Shown: positions 12,262 through 30,566 of the stretch, piece by piece
Layout: each line of letters starts with the position of its first letter
Position numbering within the stretch: position 1 is the first letter of the stretch
Origin: a virus
DNA: 39,456 bases
UHGV virus genome: UHGV-1356089
Reading direction: 5' to 3' (one strand)
Notes under the pieces: model-generated
Told to the model about the DNA's origin: nothing
Database searches by the model: none
The model's input: only the letters and a program-made list of their open reading frames with translations
Made by a program: the position numbers and the translations under genes

Positions 12262-12630
12262 TCAGGCGGCTTTGATAGTCATATCATCTGAATCAAATAT
12301 TCCTGATGTGTCGATATCGGTAATTCTTATTCCTTCGCTACCATCCATTGAAGGCCATCCTTCCTGACCATTTCCATCATTCCAGTCGAACTCACACACA
12401 ACACCATATGCATTTAAGTCGCTTGAAATTGCTATAAGCAGAGCATGTTGCGCTAGCATGATTAATACAGCATTTAATACAGCGCCGTGTTTATTGAGTC
12501 GGTATTCAGAGTCTGACCAGAAATTATTAATCTGGTGAAGTTTTTCCTCTGTCATTACGTCATGGTCGATTTCAATTTCTATTGATGCTTTCCAGTCGTA
12601 ATCAATGATGTATTTTTTGATGTTTGACAT
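12262..12630 (-). CDS. Hypothetical early protein (122 aa)
   Basis: ORF directly downstream of the terminator at 12651-12676 in the pL operon. Confidence 0.55.
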   Translation of the reverse strand: MSNIKKYIIDYDWKASIEIEIDHDVMTEEKLHQINNFWSDSEYRLNKHGAVLNAVLIMLAQHALLIAISSDLNAYGVVCEFDWNDGNGQEGWPSMDGSEGIRITDIDTSGIFDSDDMTIKAA

Positions 12631-12650
12631 CTGTTCATATCCTCACAGAT

Positions 12651-12676
12651 AAAAAATCGCCCTCACATTGGAGGGC
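12651..12676 (-). terminator. Rho-independent terminator in the pL operon (tL1-like)
   Basis: Minus strand GCCCTC-CAATGT-GAGGGC followed by GATTTTTT. Confidence 0.55.
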
Positions 12677-12833
12677 AAAGAAGATTTCCAATAATCAGAA
12701 CAAGTCGGCTCCTGTTTAGTTACGAGCGACATTGCTCCGTGTATTCACTCGTTGGAATGAATACACAGTGCAGTGTTTATTCTGTTATTTATGCCAAAAA
12801 TAAAGGCCACTATCAGGCAGCTTTGTTGTTCTG

Positions 12834-13013
12834 TTAACCAAGTTCTCTGGCAATCATTGCCGTCGTTCGTATTGCCCATTTATCGACATATTTCCCATCT
12901 TCCATTACAGGAAACATTTCTTCAGGCTTAACCATGCATTCCGATTGCAGCTTGCATCCATTGCATCGCTTGAATTGTCCACACCATTGATTTTTATCAA
13001 TAGTCGTAGTCAT
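12834..13013 (-). CDS. ral: Ral-like restriction-alleviation protein
   Basis: 59 aa, MTTTIDKNQWCGQFKRCNGCKLQSECMVKPEEMFPVMEDGKYVDKWAIRTTAMIARELG, matching lambda Ral as remembered; not in the ORF track because it is under 60 aa. Confidence 0.65.
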   Translation of the reverse strand: MTTTIDKNQWCGQFKRCNGCKLQSECMVKPEEMFPVMEDGKYVDKWAIRTTAMIARELG

Positions 13014-13082
13014 ACGGATAGTCCTGGTATTGTTCCATCACATCCTGAGGATGCTCTTCGAACTCTTCAAATTCTTCTTCCA
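12996..13082 (-). CDS. Tiny acidic ORF (28 aa) overlapping the ral start
   Basis: MEEEFEEFEEHPQDVMEQYQDYPYDYDY with AAGGTGAT RBS; overlaps ral by 17 nt in another frame. Confidence 0.3.
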
Positions 13083-13226
13083 TATATCACCTTAAATAGT
13101 GGATTGCGGTAGTAAAGATTGTGCCTGTCTTTTAACCACATCAGGCTCGGTGGTTCTCGTGTACCCCTACAGCGAGAAATCGGATAAACTCTATTCACCC
13201 CTACAGAGAGCAAAAGAGAAACGCCG

Positions 13227-13808
13227 ATGAACAACTCATGGTGGCAGGAACTAATGCATTTTTTCCTGCAAGGAATGACACTTAAACAGTTGATTCATAT
13301 GCTAATCATCCTGATCATATTGATTATTGTTATGCCGGTAAGCGTAAAAGAATGGATAAACCTGCATAATCCAGAAATCCTTCCTCATTATTGGATGTAT
13401 TACATCCTGTTGTTCTGCGTTAGCTATGTGCTTAACGGTGTTGTTAATTCCGCTTATCACGCTGTGACTGAAAGAATTGAGGTATCCGCTGCTCAGAAGC
13501 GCAAATCTAAAGAAGAAAAATATGTGCAAGATTTGTTTGATTCGTTAACTCTTGGAGAAAGAGCGTATTTGGCATTCGCTGTAGCCGCGAATAACCAGCT
13601 AAAGACAGAAAAGGGAAGCCCTGAAGCAATCTCATTGCTCGAAAAAGGGCTTCTTATTCGGATACCTTCTGCTACTGGATATCCTGAAATCGACCGTTTT
13701 GTTATCCCGGAACGCTATAGAAATGAGTGCTACATTAGGTTTGCTGGGAAGAAAGACAGTCTTATGGATGAACTTATCGCTCAGGATAAGCATGGCAAAA
13801 ACAAGTAA
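13227..13808 (+). CDS. sieB: SieB-like superinfection exclusion protein
   Basis: 193 aa with hydrophobic N-terminal segments; on the strand opposite the pL operon between ral and the N-like gene, the position of sieB in P22 and lambda. Confidence 0.65.
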   Translation: MNNSWWQELMHFFLQGMTLKQLIHMLIILIILIIVMPVSVKEWINLHNPEILPHYWMYYILLFCVSYVLNGVVNSAYHAVTERIEVSAAQKRKSKEEKYVQDLFDSLTLGERAYLAFAVAANNQLKTEKGSPEAISLLEKGLLIRIPSATGYPEIDRFVIPERYRNECYIRFAGKKDSLMDELIAQDKHGKNK

Positions 13809-13823
13809 TTAGCAAATGATTTA

Positions 13824-14096
13824 TCATCTCGCCGTCAGTTGTTTTGATTTCCTGTAGCCTGCCGCGTAAATGGCTACGTTTGGCAGGCAAACACTTCCAC
13901 TGCATTCATCAACTTTCTTGCAGCGAAGACTTCCGAGTGATGCTGCTTTGTCTGCTCTGACGCAACCAGAGAGCTTTAGCGCAATTTTTCGCGCCAGTCG
14001 CTGCTCTTGCATCGCCTGTTCACGTTGAGCCTGTCTGCGTGCTCTGCGGCGATTTCTGGCGTTATCGTCAGCCAGATATGTAATGACTACTGTCAT
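13824..14096 (-). CDS. N-type antiterminator, P22 gp24-like
   Basis: Arginine-rich NRRRARRQAQ near the N-terminus; C-terminus LPNVAIYAAGYRKSKQLTAR matches P22 gp24; ORF-track ORF trimmed to the ATG at 14096 with GGAGG RBS. Confidence 0.8.
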   Translation of the reverse strand: MTVVITYLADDNARNRRRARRQAQREQAMQEQRLARKIALKLSGCVRADKAASLGSLRCKKVDECSGSVCLPNVAIYAAGYRKSKQLTAR

Positions 14097-14150
14097 GTTG
14101 ACCTCCGATGAAACAACTTTGGAATTGATAGTGATTGCAAAGTGGTTTCT

Positions 14151-14170
14151 GGCCCCTCGAATTGAGGGGC
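14151..14170 (-). promoter_or_regulatory. Stable hairpin in the N-gene leader (GCCCCTC-AATTC-GAGGGGC), possible processing or regulatory structure
   Basis: 7-bp perfect stem ~55 nt upstream of the N start; no U-run on either strand. Confidence 0.35.
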
Positions 14171-14407
14171 AGAAAGAGCATCTCGCCACCTAATAGGTCG
14201 ATGCTCGGATCGAGAGATTTAATTAACCTCGGTTTTGAAGTTATGCATTCACATAAATCCTCCTGTTGCATGTGCAGCATTGGCTGTGTTTGGCGGCTGC
14301 ATTTCGCCTATGGAATTGACTTTGGCGGTGACGCGCCGGGTGCTTATCTTCCGGTTGCCGTCGTGCAGCTGCACTTCACGTCACCCCAAAGCCAACTACT
14401 CTTTGGT

Positions 14408-14449
14408 TCCCGCATTTCGGCGGGACAATCCCATCAATGTTAAAGAGCC
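14408..14449 (-). promoter_or_regulatory. nutL (boxA GGCTCTTTA, boxB TCCCGCCGAAATGCGGGA)
   Basis: On the minus strand between OL and the N-like gene; the boxB hairpin is identical to the one downstream of cro. Confidence 0.65.
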
Positions 14450-14496
14450 TGCCAATCTGTTCCGTTTGGCTACCAGCGTCCTGCTGATGGTTAAAG

Positions 14497-14590
14497 AATA
14501 CTGTAGGTATTTTATTTTGTAAATACTCAAGGTATTTATTTTGGTGAAATAATGATAAGCAAATGAATACAAAGGATATTTATTTTTTCG
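14497..14590. promoter_or_regulatory. OL operator cluster (three AATAC-N5-GTATT-type sites)
   Basis: AATACTGTAGGTATT (14497-14511), AATACTCAAGGTATT (14522-14536), AATACAAAGGATATT (14576-14590); same motif as the sites between cI and cro. Confidence 0.55.
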
Positions 14591-14666: not shown

Positions 14667-15056
14667 TTAGTCAGCGAAGGTTAAGACGAGAATTACCTTA
14701 ATGATGTCTGCTACAACAGACACGGCCATAGATAAACCAAAGACGATCCAAGCCATAGAGATGTCTTCACTACCATCGTATAGAGTTCCGTAATCACTGG
14801 TATAAGGCGTAAATGTCGCGCCTTGATACAATAGGTATAAGCTTGATCCATAGAGGATAAATGCAGATATCCCTTGTATTGCTATGATCACCAGAATCAT
14901 GAAACGAGCTGATCTATGCGCCCAAGCCTGGCTTATTTTTTCTGATAGAGATTTCGCAAGAAAAGCATGCGCTAAGCCGTAAATTGTCGAGATTGCCAAC
15001 ATCCCAAAAAAGCTTGCTATAGCGGTTCCAACCATAAGCGCCCCTTGCGTGATCAA
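14667..15056 (-). CDS. Predicted multi-pass membrane protein translationally coupled to cI (rex-position accessory gene)
   Basis: 129 aa with 3-4 hydrophobic segments; its ATG overlaps the cI stop (ATGA); lies between cI and OL. Confidence 0.7.
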   Translation of the reverse strand: MITQGALMVGTAIASFFGMLAISTIYGLAHAFLAKSLSEKISQAWAHRSARFMILVIIAIQGISAFILYGSSLYLLYQGATFTPYTSDYGTLYDGSEDISMAWIVFGLSMAVSVVADIIKVILVLTFAD

Positions 15057-15769
15057 ACCAGCCTTAGTTTTGTCTCAATTGCAACGCCTATAATCTTGCA
15101 GTTTCCATTGATTGGCACGAGAGGCCATGCAGGATTAAGTCCCTTGAGGTATTTATTTCCGCCGTCGATTATCAGCTTCTTGAATGTTGCTTCGTTAGAG
15201 TCAGAAAGTTTTGCTATGACCAAGCTGCCGTTGACCGCCTCCCTTCCGGTATCGAAAAGAACGAATGTTCCCTCTGGAATGCTTAACCCAACCGGTGCCG
15301 TCATTGAATCACCTTCCACTTTAAGCCAGAACGCATTACCTTGAATATGCGCGTCAGACTCAAGCCAAACATCTATGTCTTTAATGGTGTATGGTTCGCA
15401 TGCTTCACACCACGAGCCAGCCTGGATACTGCTTAACACCGGATACCTCTTTCCTGCTCTGTATTCCCCTGCATACCTTACGTTGGCATCGCTCTTAAGG
15501 CTTTCTGCCTGTTCTGCAACCTTGGCAGCAATTGACTGGCTAAAATCAGCAATTGAGACTTGCAACAACCGTGCAAAACCAGATGCAACCTCAACGTTTA
15601 GCGCGTTTCTGCCATTAAGATAATGCCCTACCGCTCCTTGGGTGATACCCAGTTCATCAGCGATTGAGTATTGGGTTATTCCCAATTCTTTCTTTTTTGA
15701 CTCATACAAAGCCTTAAGCCGCTTAGCGTCTTCGAGCTGTTCTGTCGTCAGTGATTTTTTATTTTCCAT
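15053..15769 (-). CDS. cI: CI-type prophage repressor (HTH plus LexA-like S24 autocleavage domain)
   Basis: 238 aa; HTH ITQYSIADELGITQGAVGHYLNG; Ala-Gly at RYAGEY; GDSM serine and downstream lysine motifs of S24 peptidases. Confidence 0.9.
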   Translation of the reverse strand: MENKKSLTTEQLEDAKRLKALYESKKKELGITQYSIADELGITQGAVGHYLNGRNALNVEVASGFARLLQVSIADFSQSIAAKVAEQAESLKSDANVRYAGEYRAGKRYPVLSSIQAGSWCEACEPYTIKDIDVWLESDAHIQGNAFWLKVEGDSMTAPVGLSIPEGTFVLFDTGREAVNGSLVIAKLSDSNEATFKKLIIDGGNKYLKGLNPAWPLVPINGNCKIIGVAIETKLRLV

Positions 15770-28367: not shown

Positions 28368-30566
28368 ATGGCAGAAAAAAAGATGACTGACTGGCATCGC
28401 AAGGTGCTGTGCAACTTTGATAATGCCTGGTCAGCAACACAGGATATGCGTGAGCAGATTATTGAGGCTCAACGTTTCGTCCGGGTGTCCGGCGCACAGT
28501 GGGAAGGCAGCACAAACGCTGGTTACTCATTTGATGAAGGCAGGTTTGAGCATTACCCGCGCTTTGAACTGAATAAGATTGCCCGTGAATGTGATCGCAT
28601 CATTGGCGAGTATCGACAGAATCGCATCAGCGTTAAATTCAGGCCGAAGGACGATAAGGCATCGGAAGCGTTGGCCGAAAAGATGAACGGCAAATTCCGC
28701 GCTGACTATCAGGAAACATCCGGTGGCGAAGCGTGTGATAACGCATTTGATGATGCTGTAACGGGCGGATTCGGTTGTTTCCGCATGTGTGCTGATTACG
28801 AAGATGAAATGGATCCGAGTAACGAGCAGCGACGCATCAGCCTTCTTCCTGTTTACGACCCAGCGACATGCGTCTTCTTCGATCAGGACAGCAAGCAATA
28901 TGACCGCTCTGATGCTATGTGGGCTATGGAAATGTTCTCCATGACGCCTAAAGCGTTCGAGGCTGAATACCCTGATTCCATCGCGGCAAGCCTTTCTCGT
29001 GCTGACACTGGCACTCAATATGACTGGTCAACGCCCGATGCCATCTATGTTGGACGTTACTACGAAGTCCGCATAGAGAAGGTGAAGCTCACAGTATGGC
29101 GTAACCCTGTCAGCGGAGAAACGGCAATCTATGATGAAGAGCAAATCAAAGATATTGTCGACGAGCTGACCGATGGTGCATTCGAACTGATTGGCGAGCG
29201 AACGGTGAAGAAGCGCCGCGTTTATTGCGGTCTTCTGTCTGGCGCTGAATGGCTGGAAGAACCGAAGCGTATTCCGGGCGAACATATTCCTCTCATCCCG
29301 GTATATGGGCGTCGCTCATTTGTTGATAATCAGGAGCGAATCGAAGGCCACGCAGCAAAAGCGATGGATGCACAGCGTCTTGAGAACCTGATGGTTTCTA
29401 TGATTGCAGATAACGCTACTCAGGCTGGCGGTGATGGCATTCCTATCGTGGATGTTGATTTCATTCCCGGTCCATTAATGAATCACTGGGCAGAGAGGAA
29501 TAAGAAAAGACCTGCAGTTCTTCCCATGACCAGCAAGAAGGACAAAAACGGAACGGTCATTTCAGAGGCTCAGGTTGCTGGCTGGACACCTCCGACACAA
29601 ATGCCTCCTGCTCTTGCCGGGTTATTGCAGTACACCGGAACGGCTATTCAGCAAATTACAGGTGCGTCGCAGCTTGAGAACATGCCTAGCAACGTCGCTA
29701 CCGATACCGTTGATAGCATTTTTAACCGGATGGACACGCAGTCCTATATCTACATGGACAACATGGCTAAATCCATGCGCCGCGCTGGCGTTGTGTGGCT
29801 TTCTATGGCGCGTGAGGTCTATGGCAGTGATACGCCGATGCGTATCGTTAATGATGACGGCAGCGATGACGTGGCGCTGATGACTGGTGAAGTGGTTGAC
29901 CGTCAGACAGGGCAGGTTATCGCGCTTAACGACCTTTCGCAGGGTAACTATGAAGTGACTGTCGATGTCGGTCAGTCGTTCGCTACTCGCCGTGATGCAA
30001 CTGTTAAGTCGTTACTTTCCATGCTGGCACTTATCCCGCCGGGAACGCCGAAGCACGACCTTGTATCGTCGATGATTCTCGACAATATGGATGGCGAAGG
30101 GATGGACGACCTTAAAGAATACAACCGCAATCAGTTGCTTCTGTCTGGAGTTATCAAGCCGAGAACGCCAGAAGAGCAGCAGATGGTTGAGCAGGCGAAA
30201 CAACAACAGGCCAGTCAGCCAGATCCGGCTATGGTTGCAGCGCAAGGTCAGCTTCTTGCTGGTCAGGCTGAATTGCAGAAAGCGCAGAACGAACAGGCAG
30301 CCATTCAGGTTAAAGCATTCCAGGCACAGACTGATGCTCAGGTTGCAGCGGCAAATGTTGTGAAAATCCTCGCATCTGCCGATAGCCAGCAGAAATCTGA
30401 TATCCGTGAGGCTCTGAAACTGCTCGGACAGTTCCAGCAACAGCAAGGAGACAATGCCCGTGCTGATGCAGAGCTTGTCCTGAAAAGTCAGGCGCAGGGA
30501 CATGCACAACGCATGGACATCAGCAGCATCCTGCAAAAATCAACCCAGCAACAACCACAGCAGTAA
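28368..30566 (+). CDS. Portal protein (P22 gp1-like)
   Basis: 732 aa; GEHIPLIPVYG and the C-terminal PEEQQMVEQAKQQQ...DPAMVAAQGQLLAGQAELQKAQN region parallel the P22 portal. Confidence 0.9.
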   Translation: MAEKKMTDWHRKVLCNFDNAWSATQDMREQIIEAQRFVRVSGAQWEGSTNAGYSFDEGRFEHYPRFELNKIARECDRIIGEYRQNRISVKFRPKDDKASEALAEKMNGKFRADYQETSGGEACDNAFDDAVTGGFGCFRMCADYEDEMDPSNEQRRISLLPVYDPATCVFFDQDSKQYDRSDAMWAMEMFSMTPKAFEAEYPDSIAASLSRADTGTQYDWSTPDAIYVGRYYEVRIEKVKLTVWRNPVSGETAIYDEEQIKDIVDELTDGAFELIGERTVKKRRVYCGLLSGAEWLEEPKRIPGEHIPLIPVYGRRSFVDNQERIEGHAAKAMDAQRLENLMVSMIADNATQAGGDGIPIVDVDFIPGPLMNHWAERNKKRPAVLPMTSKKDKNGTVISEAQVAGWTPPTQMPPALAGLLQYTGTAIQQITGASQLENMPSNVATDTVDSIFNRMDTQSYIYMDNMAKSMRRAGVVWLSMAREVYGSDTPMRIVNDDGSDDVALMTGEVVDRQTGQVIALNDLSQGNYEVTVDVGQSFATRRDATVKSLLSMLALIPPGTPKHDLVSSMILDNMDGEGMDDLKEYNRNQLLLSGVIKPRTPEEQQMVEQAKQQQASQPDPAMVAAQGQLLAGQAELQKAQNEQAAIQVKAFQAQTDAQVAAANVVKILASADSQQKSDIREALKLLGQFQQQQGDNARADAELVLKSQAQGHAQRMDISSILQKSTQQQPQQ

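What the first reader, a model, noticed from the sequence alone, without database searches (positions are those of the whole stretch)
13090..13808. sieB-like gene on the opposite strand, preceded by two direct repeats ACCCCTACAG(C/A)GAG
A 193-aa membrane protein resembling SieB lies antisense to the pL operon. Two copies of ACCCCTACAGNGAG (13163-13176 and 13197-13210, starts 34 bp apart) sit just upstream of its start, the second about 17 nt before the ATG. These could be binding sites for a regulator or part of a dedicated promoter; SieB-type genes are described as having an internal in-frame start that yields an inhibitory product, which could be looked for here.
Basis: partly seen in the sequence, partly recalled or inferred. 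Interest (0 to 1): 0.5.

Follow-up and report, generated by a model that had tools for sequence, protein, structure and literature searches.

The report
sieB control region with sas antisense RNA
The gene is a close relative of phage P22's exclusion gene sieB, and the two repeats mark the first bases of its mRNA and a hairpin in the known antisense RNA sas, so the locus is a known system with one possibly undescribed detail.

Summary
ACCCCTACAG(C/A)GAG occurs twice, 34 bp apart, just upstream of a 193-aa ORF. That ORF is SieB: Pfam E=1e-25 and 85% identity to P22 SieB, with the Esc start Met25 kept.

The repeats are not free-standing sites.
- Mapping the P22 annotation onto the window puts the first base of copy 2 on the mapped sieB transcription start.
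- Copy 1 overlaps the annotated -35 hexamer.
- Both copies lie inside the known P22 antisense RNA sas (123/127 nt identical; window 13106-13231, minus strand).
- On that strand, copy 1 is the 5' arm plus GGGG loop of a hairpin. The hairpin has compensatory changes and many G-U pairs.

Across about 170 distinct related loci the two copies change together. There are eight motif classes, and copy 2 always starts at the predicted transcription start.

My best reading, which is inferred, is that the sas hairpin loop recognises the free 5' end of sieB mRNA, much as IS10 RNA-OUT recognises RNA-IN. A regulator binding two DNA sites is less likely.

The repeats belong to an 85-bp module (13122-13206). 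It includes a very conserved 32-bp element of unknown function and precedes at least 39 unrelated gene families in Enterobacterales prophages.

The parts
13227..13808 (+). sieB coding sequence (193 aa, two N-terminal hydrophobic segments)
   Evidence: ORF list. Pfam SieB PF14163, E=1.4e-25. 85% identity to P22 SieB.
13299..13808 (+). esc: in-frame internal start at Met25, giving the SieB inhibitor Esc
   Evidence: The P22 record annotates the esc CDS 72 nt after the sieB start. Residues 1-60 are nearly identical to P22, including Met25.
13197..13210 (+). Repeat copy 2: the first 14 nt of sieB mRNA. The transcription start is inferred at A13197.
   Evidence: The P22 'sieB RNA start site' falls on the A of ACCCCTACAGAGAG. 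The sequence is identical in the window. These 9 nt are predicted unpaired in the mRNA.
13163..13176 (+). Repeat copy 1: positions -34 to -21 of the sieB promoter. On the minus strand it is the 5' arm plus GGGG loop of hairpin 1.
   Evidence: It overlaps the P22-annotated -35 hexamer TGTACC.
13160..13190 (+). sieB promoter as annotated in P22: TGTACC, 19 nt, TAAACT (-10 at 13185-13190)
   Evidence: P22 regulatory feature 29690-29720 mapped onto identical window sequence.
13106..13231 (-). sas antisense RNA. It covers the sieB start codon, ribosome-binding site and 5' UTR, then hairpin 1 and the conserved element. It stops 68 nt short of the esc ATG.
   Evidence: 123 of 127 nt identical to the P22A-sas RNA sequence in PMC13397905. 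The ends are taken from that single small-RNA data set.
13154..13178 (-). Hairpin 1 of sas: UUCUCG-C-UGUA GGGG UACA-CGAGAA
   Evidence: Present in the minimum-energy fold. Across 39 distinct homologues, 9 pairs with 7 showing compensatory changes, 90% of cells paired against 76% shuffled (0/500), and 65 G-U cells.
13122..13153 (.). Conserved 32-bp element TGCCTGTCTTTTAACCACATCAGGCTCGGTGG. It is the 3' domain of sas. Its function is unknown.
   Evidence: One copy in the window, none expected by chance. Found in 97 genome stretches from many Enterobacterales genera, and more than 120 viral-contig stretches in each of two relaxed-pattern scans.
13244..13269 (.). Inverted repeat GCAGGAA..TTCCTGC inside sieB codons 6-15, 13 nt upstream (in the pL sense) of the sas 5' end. 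It may be a processing signal, but belonging to the system is uncertain.

Best explanation
The locus is the P22-type sieB/esc/sas exclusion module of an HK140-like lambdoid phage.

Shown by mapping published P22 features onto nearly identical sequence:
- sieB is transcribed rightward from its own promoter (-10 TAAACT, 13185-13190), starting at A13197, the first base of repeat copy 2.
- The mRNA yields SieB from the ATG at 13227 and the inhibitor Esc from the ATG at 13299.
- Leftward transcription yields the antisense RNA sas (13231 to 13106). It covers the sieB ribosome-binding site and start codon but not the esc start. In P22 this switches translation from SieB to Esc.

Shown by comparative analysis:
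- Copy 1 read on the minus strand (CUGUAGGGGU) is the 5' arm plus GGGG tetraloop of a conserved sas hairpin.
- The two DNA copies co-vary between phage lineages.
- The repeated segment always starts at the predicted transcription start.

Inferred:
- Because the copies are direct repeats, the sas hairpin loop and 5' arm are complementary to the unpaired 5' end of sieB mRNA.
- I propose that this hairpin is the site where sas first captures the mRNA 5' end (CCCC pairing with the GGGG loop, then strand invasion). IS10 RNA-OUT captures the 5' end of RNA-IN in this way.
- The full duplex over the ribosome-binding site would then form.
- The repeats are therefore the footprint of an RNA-RNA recognition device rather than protein operators.
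For: Identity of the locus:
- SieB.
- P22 promoter, RNA start and esc annotations.
- The window is identical to P22 through the promoter and copy 2.
- sas sequence from PMC13397905, 123/127 identical to the window.

Hairpin 1 is a minus-strand RNA structure:
- 7 of 9 pairs have compensatory changes.
- 90.0% of cells are paired, against 76.2% in shuffles (0 of 500 reach it) and 32-59% in slid registers.
- 65 cells are G-U, which would be A-C mismatches on the plus strand; only 23 cells are the reverse type.
- The minus strand folds 2.06 kcal/mol better on average in 75 two-repeat loci. A composition-only control gives 0.79.

The copies evolve together:
- Eight motif classes appear in both copies of a locus: ACCCCTACAG, ACCCCTACAA, TCCCCAACAAC, CCCCCACAA, CTCCCCAGCAA, TCCCCAGT, CCCCAATGCAA and TTCCACAGTCAA.
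- 62 of 65 distinct C-run loci have a second C-run 26-45 nt downstream.
- The 6 nt after the run match at 4.77 of 6 positions, against 3.31 +/- 0.21 when permuted (0 of 10,000).

Geometry and accessibility:
- A TANNNT hexamer ends 4-7 nt before the first repeated base of copy 2 in 69 of 72 loci, so the repeat begins at the predicted start.
- In single-hairpin relatives, an extended -10-like sequence inside the conserved element places the predicted start in the hairpin loop. The same loop-to-5'-end relation then arises directly.
- The mRNA 5' end is predicted single-stranded.
- The duplex of mRNA nt 1-16 with hairpin 1 is -23.1 kcal/mol, against -9.9 for the hairpin alone.

No external factor fits:
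- The same class serves lambda, P22, HK620 and HK140, which differ in immunity and N proteins.
- Photorhabdus prophages carry two different classes.
Against: - Nothing was tested experimentally for this phage.
- The sas ends come from one small-RNA data set (127 nt), whereas a review lists sas as 105 nt.
- The original sas papers could not be read, so the repeat may already have been explained there.
- sas is already fully complementary to the mRNA leader in cis, so a second, partial recognition site looks redundant.
- Whole-RNA folding energies are not unusual (z = -0.5 to -1.0).
- Copy 1 overlaps the -35 region, so a constraint at the DNA level cannot be excluded.
- In single-hairpin relatives the loop sequence (TCTCACACA) is conserved beyond what complementarity alone requires, which hints at another constraint.
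- Where the two copies differ by a transition, wobble-compatible and incompatible changes are equal, 6 against 6 by my count of the pairs listed.
- The permutation test does not correct for relatedness of the sequences.
Confidence: 0.55

Rival explanations
1. The repeats are two operator sites for one DNA-binding regulator. It binds at -34 and at +1 and represses or activates the sieB promoter.
For: The repeats are direct, 31-37 bp apart (about three helical turns), and straddle the -35 region and the start site. Both copies are conserved and co-vary, as operators recognised by one protein would. Loop sequences in related loci are conserved more than complementarity requires.
Against: No linked gene co-varies with the motif class; the genes on both sides differ. 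Lambda, P22, HK620 and HK140 share the motif but have different repressors and N proteins. Photorhabdus prophages carry two classes, which argues against a host factor of fixed specificity. Copy 2 starts exactly at the predicted transcription start, and copy 1 coincides with one arm plus the loop of an RNA hairpin that has strand-specific G-U pairs. Single-hairpin relatives have only one copy.
Confidence: 0.15
2. Each copy is the first transcribed sequence of one of two tandem promoters: one inside the conserved element and the mapped one. The shared C/A-rich 5' leader is needed in the mRNA itself, for stability, ribosome loading or Rho avoidance, and not for pairing with sas.
For: In single-hairpin relatives the conserved element ends in TGGTATNCT, an extended -10-like sequence, and the hairpin loop lies 6-8 nt downstream. 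That is where copy 1 lies in this window. All motif classes are C/A-rich and G-poor on the plus strand.
Against: In this window and its class the corresponding hexamer is TTCTCG, which lacks the key A2 and T6, so an upstream start at copy 1 is unlikely. P22 annotation reports one RNA start. A generic C/A-rich leader would not require the two copies to share the same lineage-specific substitutions.
Confidence: 0.15
3. The repeat is a relic of a short duplication that created the present promoter arrangement and has no function of its own.
For: The two-repeat arrangement looks like the single-hairpin one with the segment from the -10 to the start motif laid down a second time.
Against: A neutral relic would decay independently in each copy. 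Instead, eight classes show the same changes in both copies across distant hosts. Mosaic joints in relatives fall exactly at the end of copy 2 (13206) and keep it intact.
Confidence: 0.05

Closest known systems
Phage P22 sieB / esc / sas system (Ranade and Poteete 1993, cited from my own knowledge; P22 record BK000583; sas sequence in PMC13397905)
   Same: SieB is 85% identical. Met25, the Esc start, is kept. The -10, transcription start and both repeats are identical. The sas region is 123/127 identical. The position is the same, antisense between the N-type gene and ral.
   Different: The host phage is an E. coli HK140-like phage, not Salmonella P22. The C-terminal half of SieB is more diverged. 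Nothing was tested here. Whether the P22 papers discuss the repeats is unknown, because they could not be read.
Phage lambda sieB
   Same: Lambda carries the same module, 96% identical over window 13080-13206, with both repeats and the same -10, directly upstream of its sieB.
   Different: Similarity ends at the last base of the copy-2 10-mer. The lambda SieB protein and its 5' UTR have a different sequence. No sas RNA or Esc is annotated for lambda in the record seen.
IS10 RNA-OUT / RNA-IN antisense control (from my own knowledge)
   Same: An antisense RNA hairpin has a loop complementary to the extreme 5' end of the target mRNA. Pairing would start at the loop and run down one side of the stem, blocking the ribosome-binding site. 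This comparison is about how the system may work, not about family membership.
   Different: There is no sequence relation. Here the recognition hairpin is not the direct antisense of the mRNA 5' end but a second copy 34 nt away. The kinetic role is only inferred.
Rac prophage sieB region of E. coli K-12
   Same: It has a diverged copy of the whole module upstream of sieB, with the element, hairpin, a TAACAT -10, and copies ACCCCTACAG and ACCCTTACAG.
   Different: The element differs: GCCCGG..CCGGGC replaces GCCTG..CAGGC. The annotated small RNA KilS lies about 60 nt further left and is a separate RNA.

Membership tests
SieB superinfection exclusion protein (Pfam PF14163; P22 SieB) | Significant match to the family profile | tested here: met
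   E=1.4e-25, 90.1 bits against a cut-off of 26, covering profile positions 2-144 of 147.
SieB superinfection exclusion protein (Pfam PF14163; P22 SieB) | Close similarity to the experimentally characterised P22 protein | tested here: met
   163 of 191 residues identical, E=1e-116.
SieB superinfection exclusion protein (Pfam PF14163; P22 SieB) | Location antisense within the leftward early operon, between the N-type gene and ral | tested here: met
   N_peptide and Ral Pfam matches on the minus strand on either side. Same order in HK140 and P22.
SieB superinfection exclusion protein (Pfam PF14163; P22 SieB) | In-frame internal start that gives Esc | tested here: met
   ATG at 13299 is codon 25, the position of the annotated P22 esc CDS. 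Actual translation from it was not tested.
SieB superinfection exclusion protein (Pfam PF14163; P22 SieB) | Aborts lytic growth of superinfecting phages | not testable with these tools
   Needs infection assays.
sas antisense RNA of P22 | Sequence homologous to the sequenced P22 sas RNA | tested here: met
   123 of 127 nt identical to P22A-sas.
sas antisense RNA of P22 | Complementary to the sieB translation start but not to the esc start | tested here: met
   The homologous stretch runs from 13231 to 13106. The sieB ATG is at 13227 and the esc ATG at 13299.
sas antisense RNA of P22 | Made during lytic growth and switches translation from SieB to Esc | not testable with these tools
   Known for P22 only.
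Any Rfam RNA family | Match to a curated covariance model | tested here: not met
   In 12500-14500 there were only two chance-level matches (E 0.19 and 0.57, both far below gathering scores), and neither overlaps the sas region.
Operator pair for a DNA-binding regulator | A cognate regulator that co-occurs or co-varies with the sites | tested here: not met
   Neighbouring genes are unrelated between loci of one motif class. One class spans phages of different immunity, and one host genus carries two classes. Actual binding was not tested.
Loop to 5'-end antisense recognition (IS10 RNA-OUT type; works-like comparison only) | Antisense hairpin loop and one arm complementary to the extreme 5' end of the target mRNA | tested here: met
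   Copy 1 on the minus strand is the 5' arm plus loop. Copy 2 is mRNA nt 1-14. Duplex -23.1 kcal/mol.
Loop to 5'-end antisense recognition (IS10 RNA-OUT type; works-like comparison only) | Target 5' end accessible | tested here: met
   The first 9 nt are unpaired in both the minimum-energy and centroid folds. This is a prediction only.
Loop to 5'-end antisense recognition (IS10 RNA-OUT type; works-like comparison only) | The loop contact sets the pairing rate | not testable with these tools
   Needs binding kinetics with loop mutants.

The most novel reading that the evidence does not exclude
The repeats are the visible sign of a widespread, portable control cassette in lambdoid prophages of Enterobacterales. 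The cassette comprises a conserved 32-nt element and a G-loop hairpin, both on the leftward transcript, plus a promoter on the other strand. Its hairpin is kept complementary to the first 10-14 nt of whatever prophage-expressed cargo gene follows (SieB and at least 38 other families). During lytic growth the leftward RNA silences or re-programmes that cargo. The eight co-varying motif classes would then be specificity groups that decide which incoming phage can neutralise which resident prophage's exclusion gene.
Probability: 0.3. Interest if true: 0.7.

Novelty: new member of a known kind. Interest (0 to 1): 0.45.

Why it matters
SieB/Esc/sas is one of the few cases where an antisense RNA switches a gene between two protein products, letting a phage escape its own exclusion system.

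If the repeats mark a dedicated recognition hairpin, they show how that RNA finds its target quickly. They also give a simple compensatory-mutation test of the idea.

The same 85-bp module precedes dozens of unrelated, mostly uncharacterised prophage genes and occurs in about a fifth of complete E. coli genomes. It could therefore serve as a marker for finding new exclusion or defence genes, and it points to a shared way of turning them off during lytic growth.

Tried and rejected
- **Pseudoknot in the 32-bp element** (ACCAC/GUGGU with GCCUG/CAGGC). Two relaxed scans found only rare, uncompensated single variants. One compensated variant exists in Rac. The idea is unsupported and left open.
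- **Known DNA or RNA sites in the element**, checked by eye: CRP, LexA and DnaA boxes, Chi, boxA, ops. None fits, or the orientation is wrong.
- **Protein coding across the element.** The 55-aa minus-strand ORF 13067-13234 was rejected because the reading frame differs between loci and the element carries a 1-nt indel.
- **An own promoter for sas** just upstream of 13231 on the minus strand. The scan found none and none is visible by eye, so sas is probably processed from the leftward transcript. This remains unproven.
- **Thermodynamic signal for the whole sas region.** The z-scores are not significant.
- **Original P22 papers.** They are not held. Reviews give only outlines.
- **Literature search for the element sequence.** The only paper found was an unrelated microscopy paper.
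- **Search for distant relatives with the Rac SieB protein.** It returned only near-identical Rac copies.
- **Wobble bias between discordant copies.** Counts were 6 against 6, by my count of the pairs listed, so this was uninformative.
- **KilS small RNA of Rac.** It lies next to the module but is a separate RNA.

Full report
**Observation.** The similarity extends to 17 nt with 15 of 17 identical, and the starts are 34 bp apart. With up to two mismatches the pattern gives three matches in the window against 0.15 expected.

The ORF 13227-13808 on the plus strand encodes 193 aa.
- It matches Pfam SieB at E=1.4e-25.
- It is 85% identical to the characterised P22 SieB.
- It is flanked on the minus strand by ral (12834-13013) and an N-type antiterminator gene (13824-14189).
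- A CI-like repressor ORF lies further right (15053-15769).

The gene is therefore antisense to the leftward early operon. The region is 99.3% identical to E. coli phage HK140 and about 90% to P22-like Salmonella phages.

**What the repeats sit in.** The P22 reference record annotates four relevant features: a sieB promoter (TGTACC, 19 nt, TAAACT), a sieB RNA start site, the sieB CDS, and an esc CDS that begins 72 nt into sieB.
- Read against the P22 sequence, the RNA start is the A that opens ACCCCTACAGAGAG, which is the first base of copy 2.
- The annotated -35 hexamer overlaps the first bases of copy 1.
- The window is identical to P22 through this stretch.

By homology, then, the promoter is 13160-13190, the start is 13197, and Esc starts at the ATG at 13299 (Met25, conserved).

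A 2026 small-RNA sequencing paper gives the sequence of the P22 antisense RNA sas, and it contains both repeats as CUCUCUGUAGGGGU and CUCGCUGUAGGGGU (PMC13397905). The window's minus strand 13106-13231 is 123/127 identical to it. Reviews describe sas as the RNA that blocks SieB synthesis while allowing Esc synthesis. I could not read the two original 1993 papers. Rfam has no model for this RNA.

**A larger conserved module.** Window 13122-13206 is shared by phages whose downstream genes are unrelated: P22-type SieB, lambda-type SieB, HK620 hkaP and others. This stretch holds a 32-bp element, a hairpin carrying copy 1, the -10, and the 10-mer of copy 2. Similarity to lambda and HK620 ends exactly at 13206. 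Similarity to another group of phages begins exactly at 13122.

A scan for the 32-bp element found 97 stretches in genomes of many Enterobacterales genera, including Providencia, Proteus, Xenorhabdus, Photorhabdus, Klebsiella, Enterobacter, Citrobacter, Pantoea and Edwardsiella. About twenty short contigs identical or nearly identical to lambda also turned up in unrelated organisms, presumably as contamination. Viral contigs gave more than 120 further stretches in each of two relaxed-pattern scans. 1010 of 5426 complete E. coli genomes carry the module. Wherever I checked, the element is antisense to the leftward operon, with the repressor gene to its right on the other strand.

**Two architectures.** Both arrangements follow the conserved element.
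- In 78 of 174 distinct loci the arrangement matches this window: a hairpin, a -10-like hexamer, then a second copy of the hairpin's loop-plus-arm sequence 31-37 bp downstream.
- In most of the rest, the element itself ends in TGGTATNCT, an extended -10-like sequence. It is followed by a single hairpin that runs straight into a Shine-Dalgarno sequence and a start codon, and there is no repeat.
- In that second arrangement the predicted start lies in the hairpin loop, so the mRNA 5' end is the loop plus the 3' arm. This is the very segment that is duplicated in the first arrangement. This step is an inference from consensus spacing, not from mapped ends.

**The hairpin is a minus-strand RNA structure.** For 39 distinct sequences of the GGGG-loop class, the consensus fold has 9 pairs, and 7 of them show compensatory changes.
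- 90.0% of cells form standard pairs, against 76.2% in shuffles (0 of 500 reach it) and 32-59% in slid registers.
- 65 cells are G-U pairs, which would be A-C mismatches on the plus strand. Only 23 cells are the reverse type.
- In the two-repeat loci the minus strand folds 2.06 kcal/mol better on average (57 loci against 16). A composition-only control accounts for 0.79 of that.
- Single-hairpin loci show a smaller bias of 0.64.

In this window the hairpin is UUCUCG-C-UGUA GGGG UACA-CGAGAA (13178 to 13154). Copy 1 read on this strand is its 5' arm and loop.

**The two copies evolve together.** Eight motif classes occur, and in each class both copies carry the same variant: ACCCCTACAG, ACCCCTACAA, TCCCCAACAAC, CCCCCACAA, CTCCCCAGCAA, TCCCCAGT, CCCCAATGCAA and TTCCACAGTCAA.
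- Of 65 distinct C-run loci, 62 have a second C-run 26-45 nt downstream.
- The six bases after the run agree at 4.77 of 6 positions, against 3.31 +/- 0.21 after permutation (0 of 10,000). That test ignores relatedness, so the number of classes is the more honest measure.
- A TANNNT hexamer ends 4-7 nt before the first repeated base of copy 2 in 69 of 72 loci, so the repeat begins at the predicted start.

**Mechanism.** The steps taken from P22 are these: sieB mRNA starts at 13197; sas covers the sieB start region but stops 68 nt before the esc ATG; pairing shuts off SieB and leaves Esc.

The new, inferred step concerns the repeats. Because they are direct repeats in DNA, the sas hairpin loop and 5' arm are complementary to the first 10-14 nt of the mRNA.
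- Those nucleotides are predicted to be unpaired.
- The intermolecular duplex (-23.1 kcal/mol) is far more stable than the hairpin (-9.9), whose stem carries a bulged C here and, in most related loci, G-U wobble pairs.

I therefore propose that the hairpin is the site of first contact, comparable to the RNA-OUT loop and the RNA-IN 5' end of IS10. This accounts for four observations without invoking any outside factor: the co-variation; the left edge of the repeat falling at the start site; the overlap of copy 1 with one arm plus the loop; and the single-hairpin relatives.

**Rivals.**
- *A regulator binding both DNA copies* would also explain co-variation. However, no linked gene tracks the motif. 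Lambda, P22, HK620 and HK140 share the motif despite different repressors and N proteins. Photorhabdus prophages carry two classes.
- *Tandem promoters with a required leader sequence* is weakened because the upstream hexamer in this class (TTCTCG) lacks the key bases.
- *A neutral relic* would not change in parallel in both copies.

The weak points of my reading are as follows.
- sas is already fully complementary to the leader in cis.
- Loop sequences are conserved beyond what pairing needs.
- Overall folding energies are ordinary.
- Discordant copy pairs show no wobble bias, 6 against 6 by my count of the pairs.

**The 32-bp element.** It is the most conserved part of the module and remains unexplained. 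Its two possible helices show almost no variation and no compensation within the canonical family. The diverged copy in the K-12 Rac prophage replaces GCCTG..CAGGC with GCCCGG..CCGGGC, which is a single compensated change. In single-hairpin loci the element doubles as a likely promoter. In this window it forms the 3' part of sas. No paper in the library contains its sequence in a relevant context.

**Cargo.** Downstream of the module I found at least 39 unrelated protein families. Several occur with both architectures. Those tested match phage families of unknown function or nothing at all.

**Verdict.** The locus is a new member of the known sieB/esc/sas system. The repeats are best read as an RNA-level recognition feature, with moderate confidence. 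The portable module around them deserves follow-up.

Noticed in passing
window 13122-13153 (also L013-L263): A 32-bp element, TGCCTG(T)CTTTTMACCACNTCAGGCNNGGTGG, is almost invariant across prophages of many Enterobacterales genera and always lies antisense to the leftward operon. Its function is unknown. It is not in Rfam and not in the searched literature. In many loci its end reads TGGTATNCT, an extended -10-like sequence.
   Followed up: partly
L013-L263, downstream of the element: At least 39 unrelated plus-strand protein families follow the module at the sieB position. Most are small phage proteins of unknown function, and several families occur with both module architectures. The site looks like a swap point for prophage-expressed genes.
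   Followed up: partly
L264 8566-8672 (E. coli K-12 Rac prophage): A diverged copy of the whole module lies upstream of Rac sieB, with repeat copies ACCCCTACAG and ACCCTTACAG. Here GCCCGG..CCGGGC replaces GCCTG..CAGGC, the only compensated change seen in the element.
   Followed up: partly
L264 8406-8503, minus strand: The annotated Hfq-associated small RNA KilS (b4833) lies about 60 nt beyond the module in the kilR leader. It is said to have its own promoter (PMC8175672). The window has no counterpart.
   Followed up: partly
window 13244-13269: An inverted repeat, GCAGGAA..TTCCTGC, lies inside sieB codons 6-15, 13 nt before the sas 5' end in the leftward sense. It could be a processing or pause signal.
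   Followed up: no
window 13091-13105 and 13281-13295: A 15-nt direct repeat with 13 of 15 identical. One copy abuts the sas 3' end and the other lies just before the esc ATG. Only 12 of 15 match in P22, so it is probably chance.
   Followed up: partly
window about 13000-13086, minus strand: A small acidic ORF (MEEEFEEFEEHPQDVMEQYQDYPYDYDY, 28 aa) resembles lambda orf28. It has a good Shine-Dalgarno sequence, starts just after the sas region, and overlaps the ral start.
   Followed up: no
L011 772-1017 (phage SfV, U82619): An unannotated 81-aa plus-strand ORF follows the element. It matches phrog_3311 over its full length (E=1e-55), so it is probably a real gene missing from the record.
   Followed up: partly
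L028, L030, L031 and about 20 other short contigs: Short contigs identical or nearly identical to phage lambda appear in genome assemblies of unrelated bacteria such as Nocardioides, Lacrimispora and Paenibacillus. This is most likely lambda DNA contamination.
   Followed up: no
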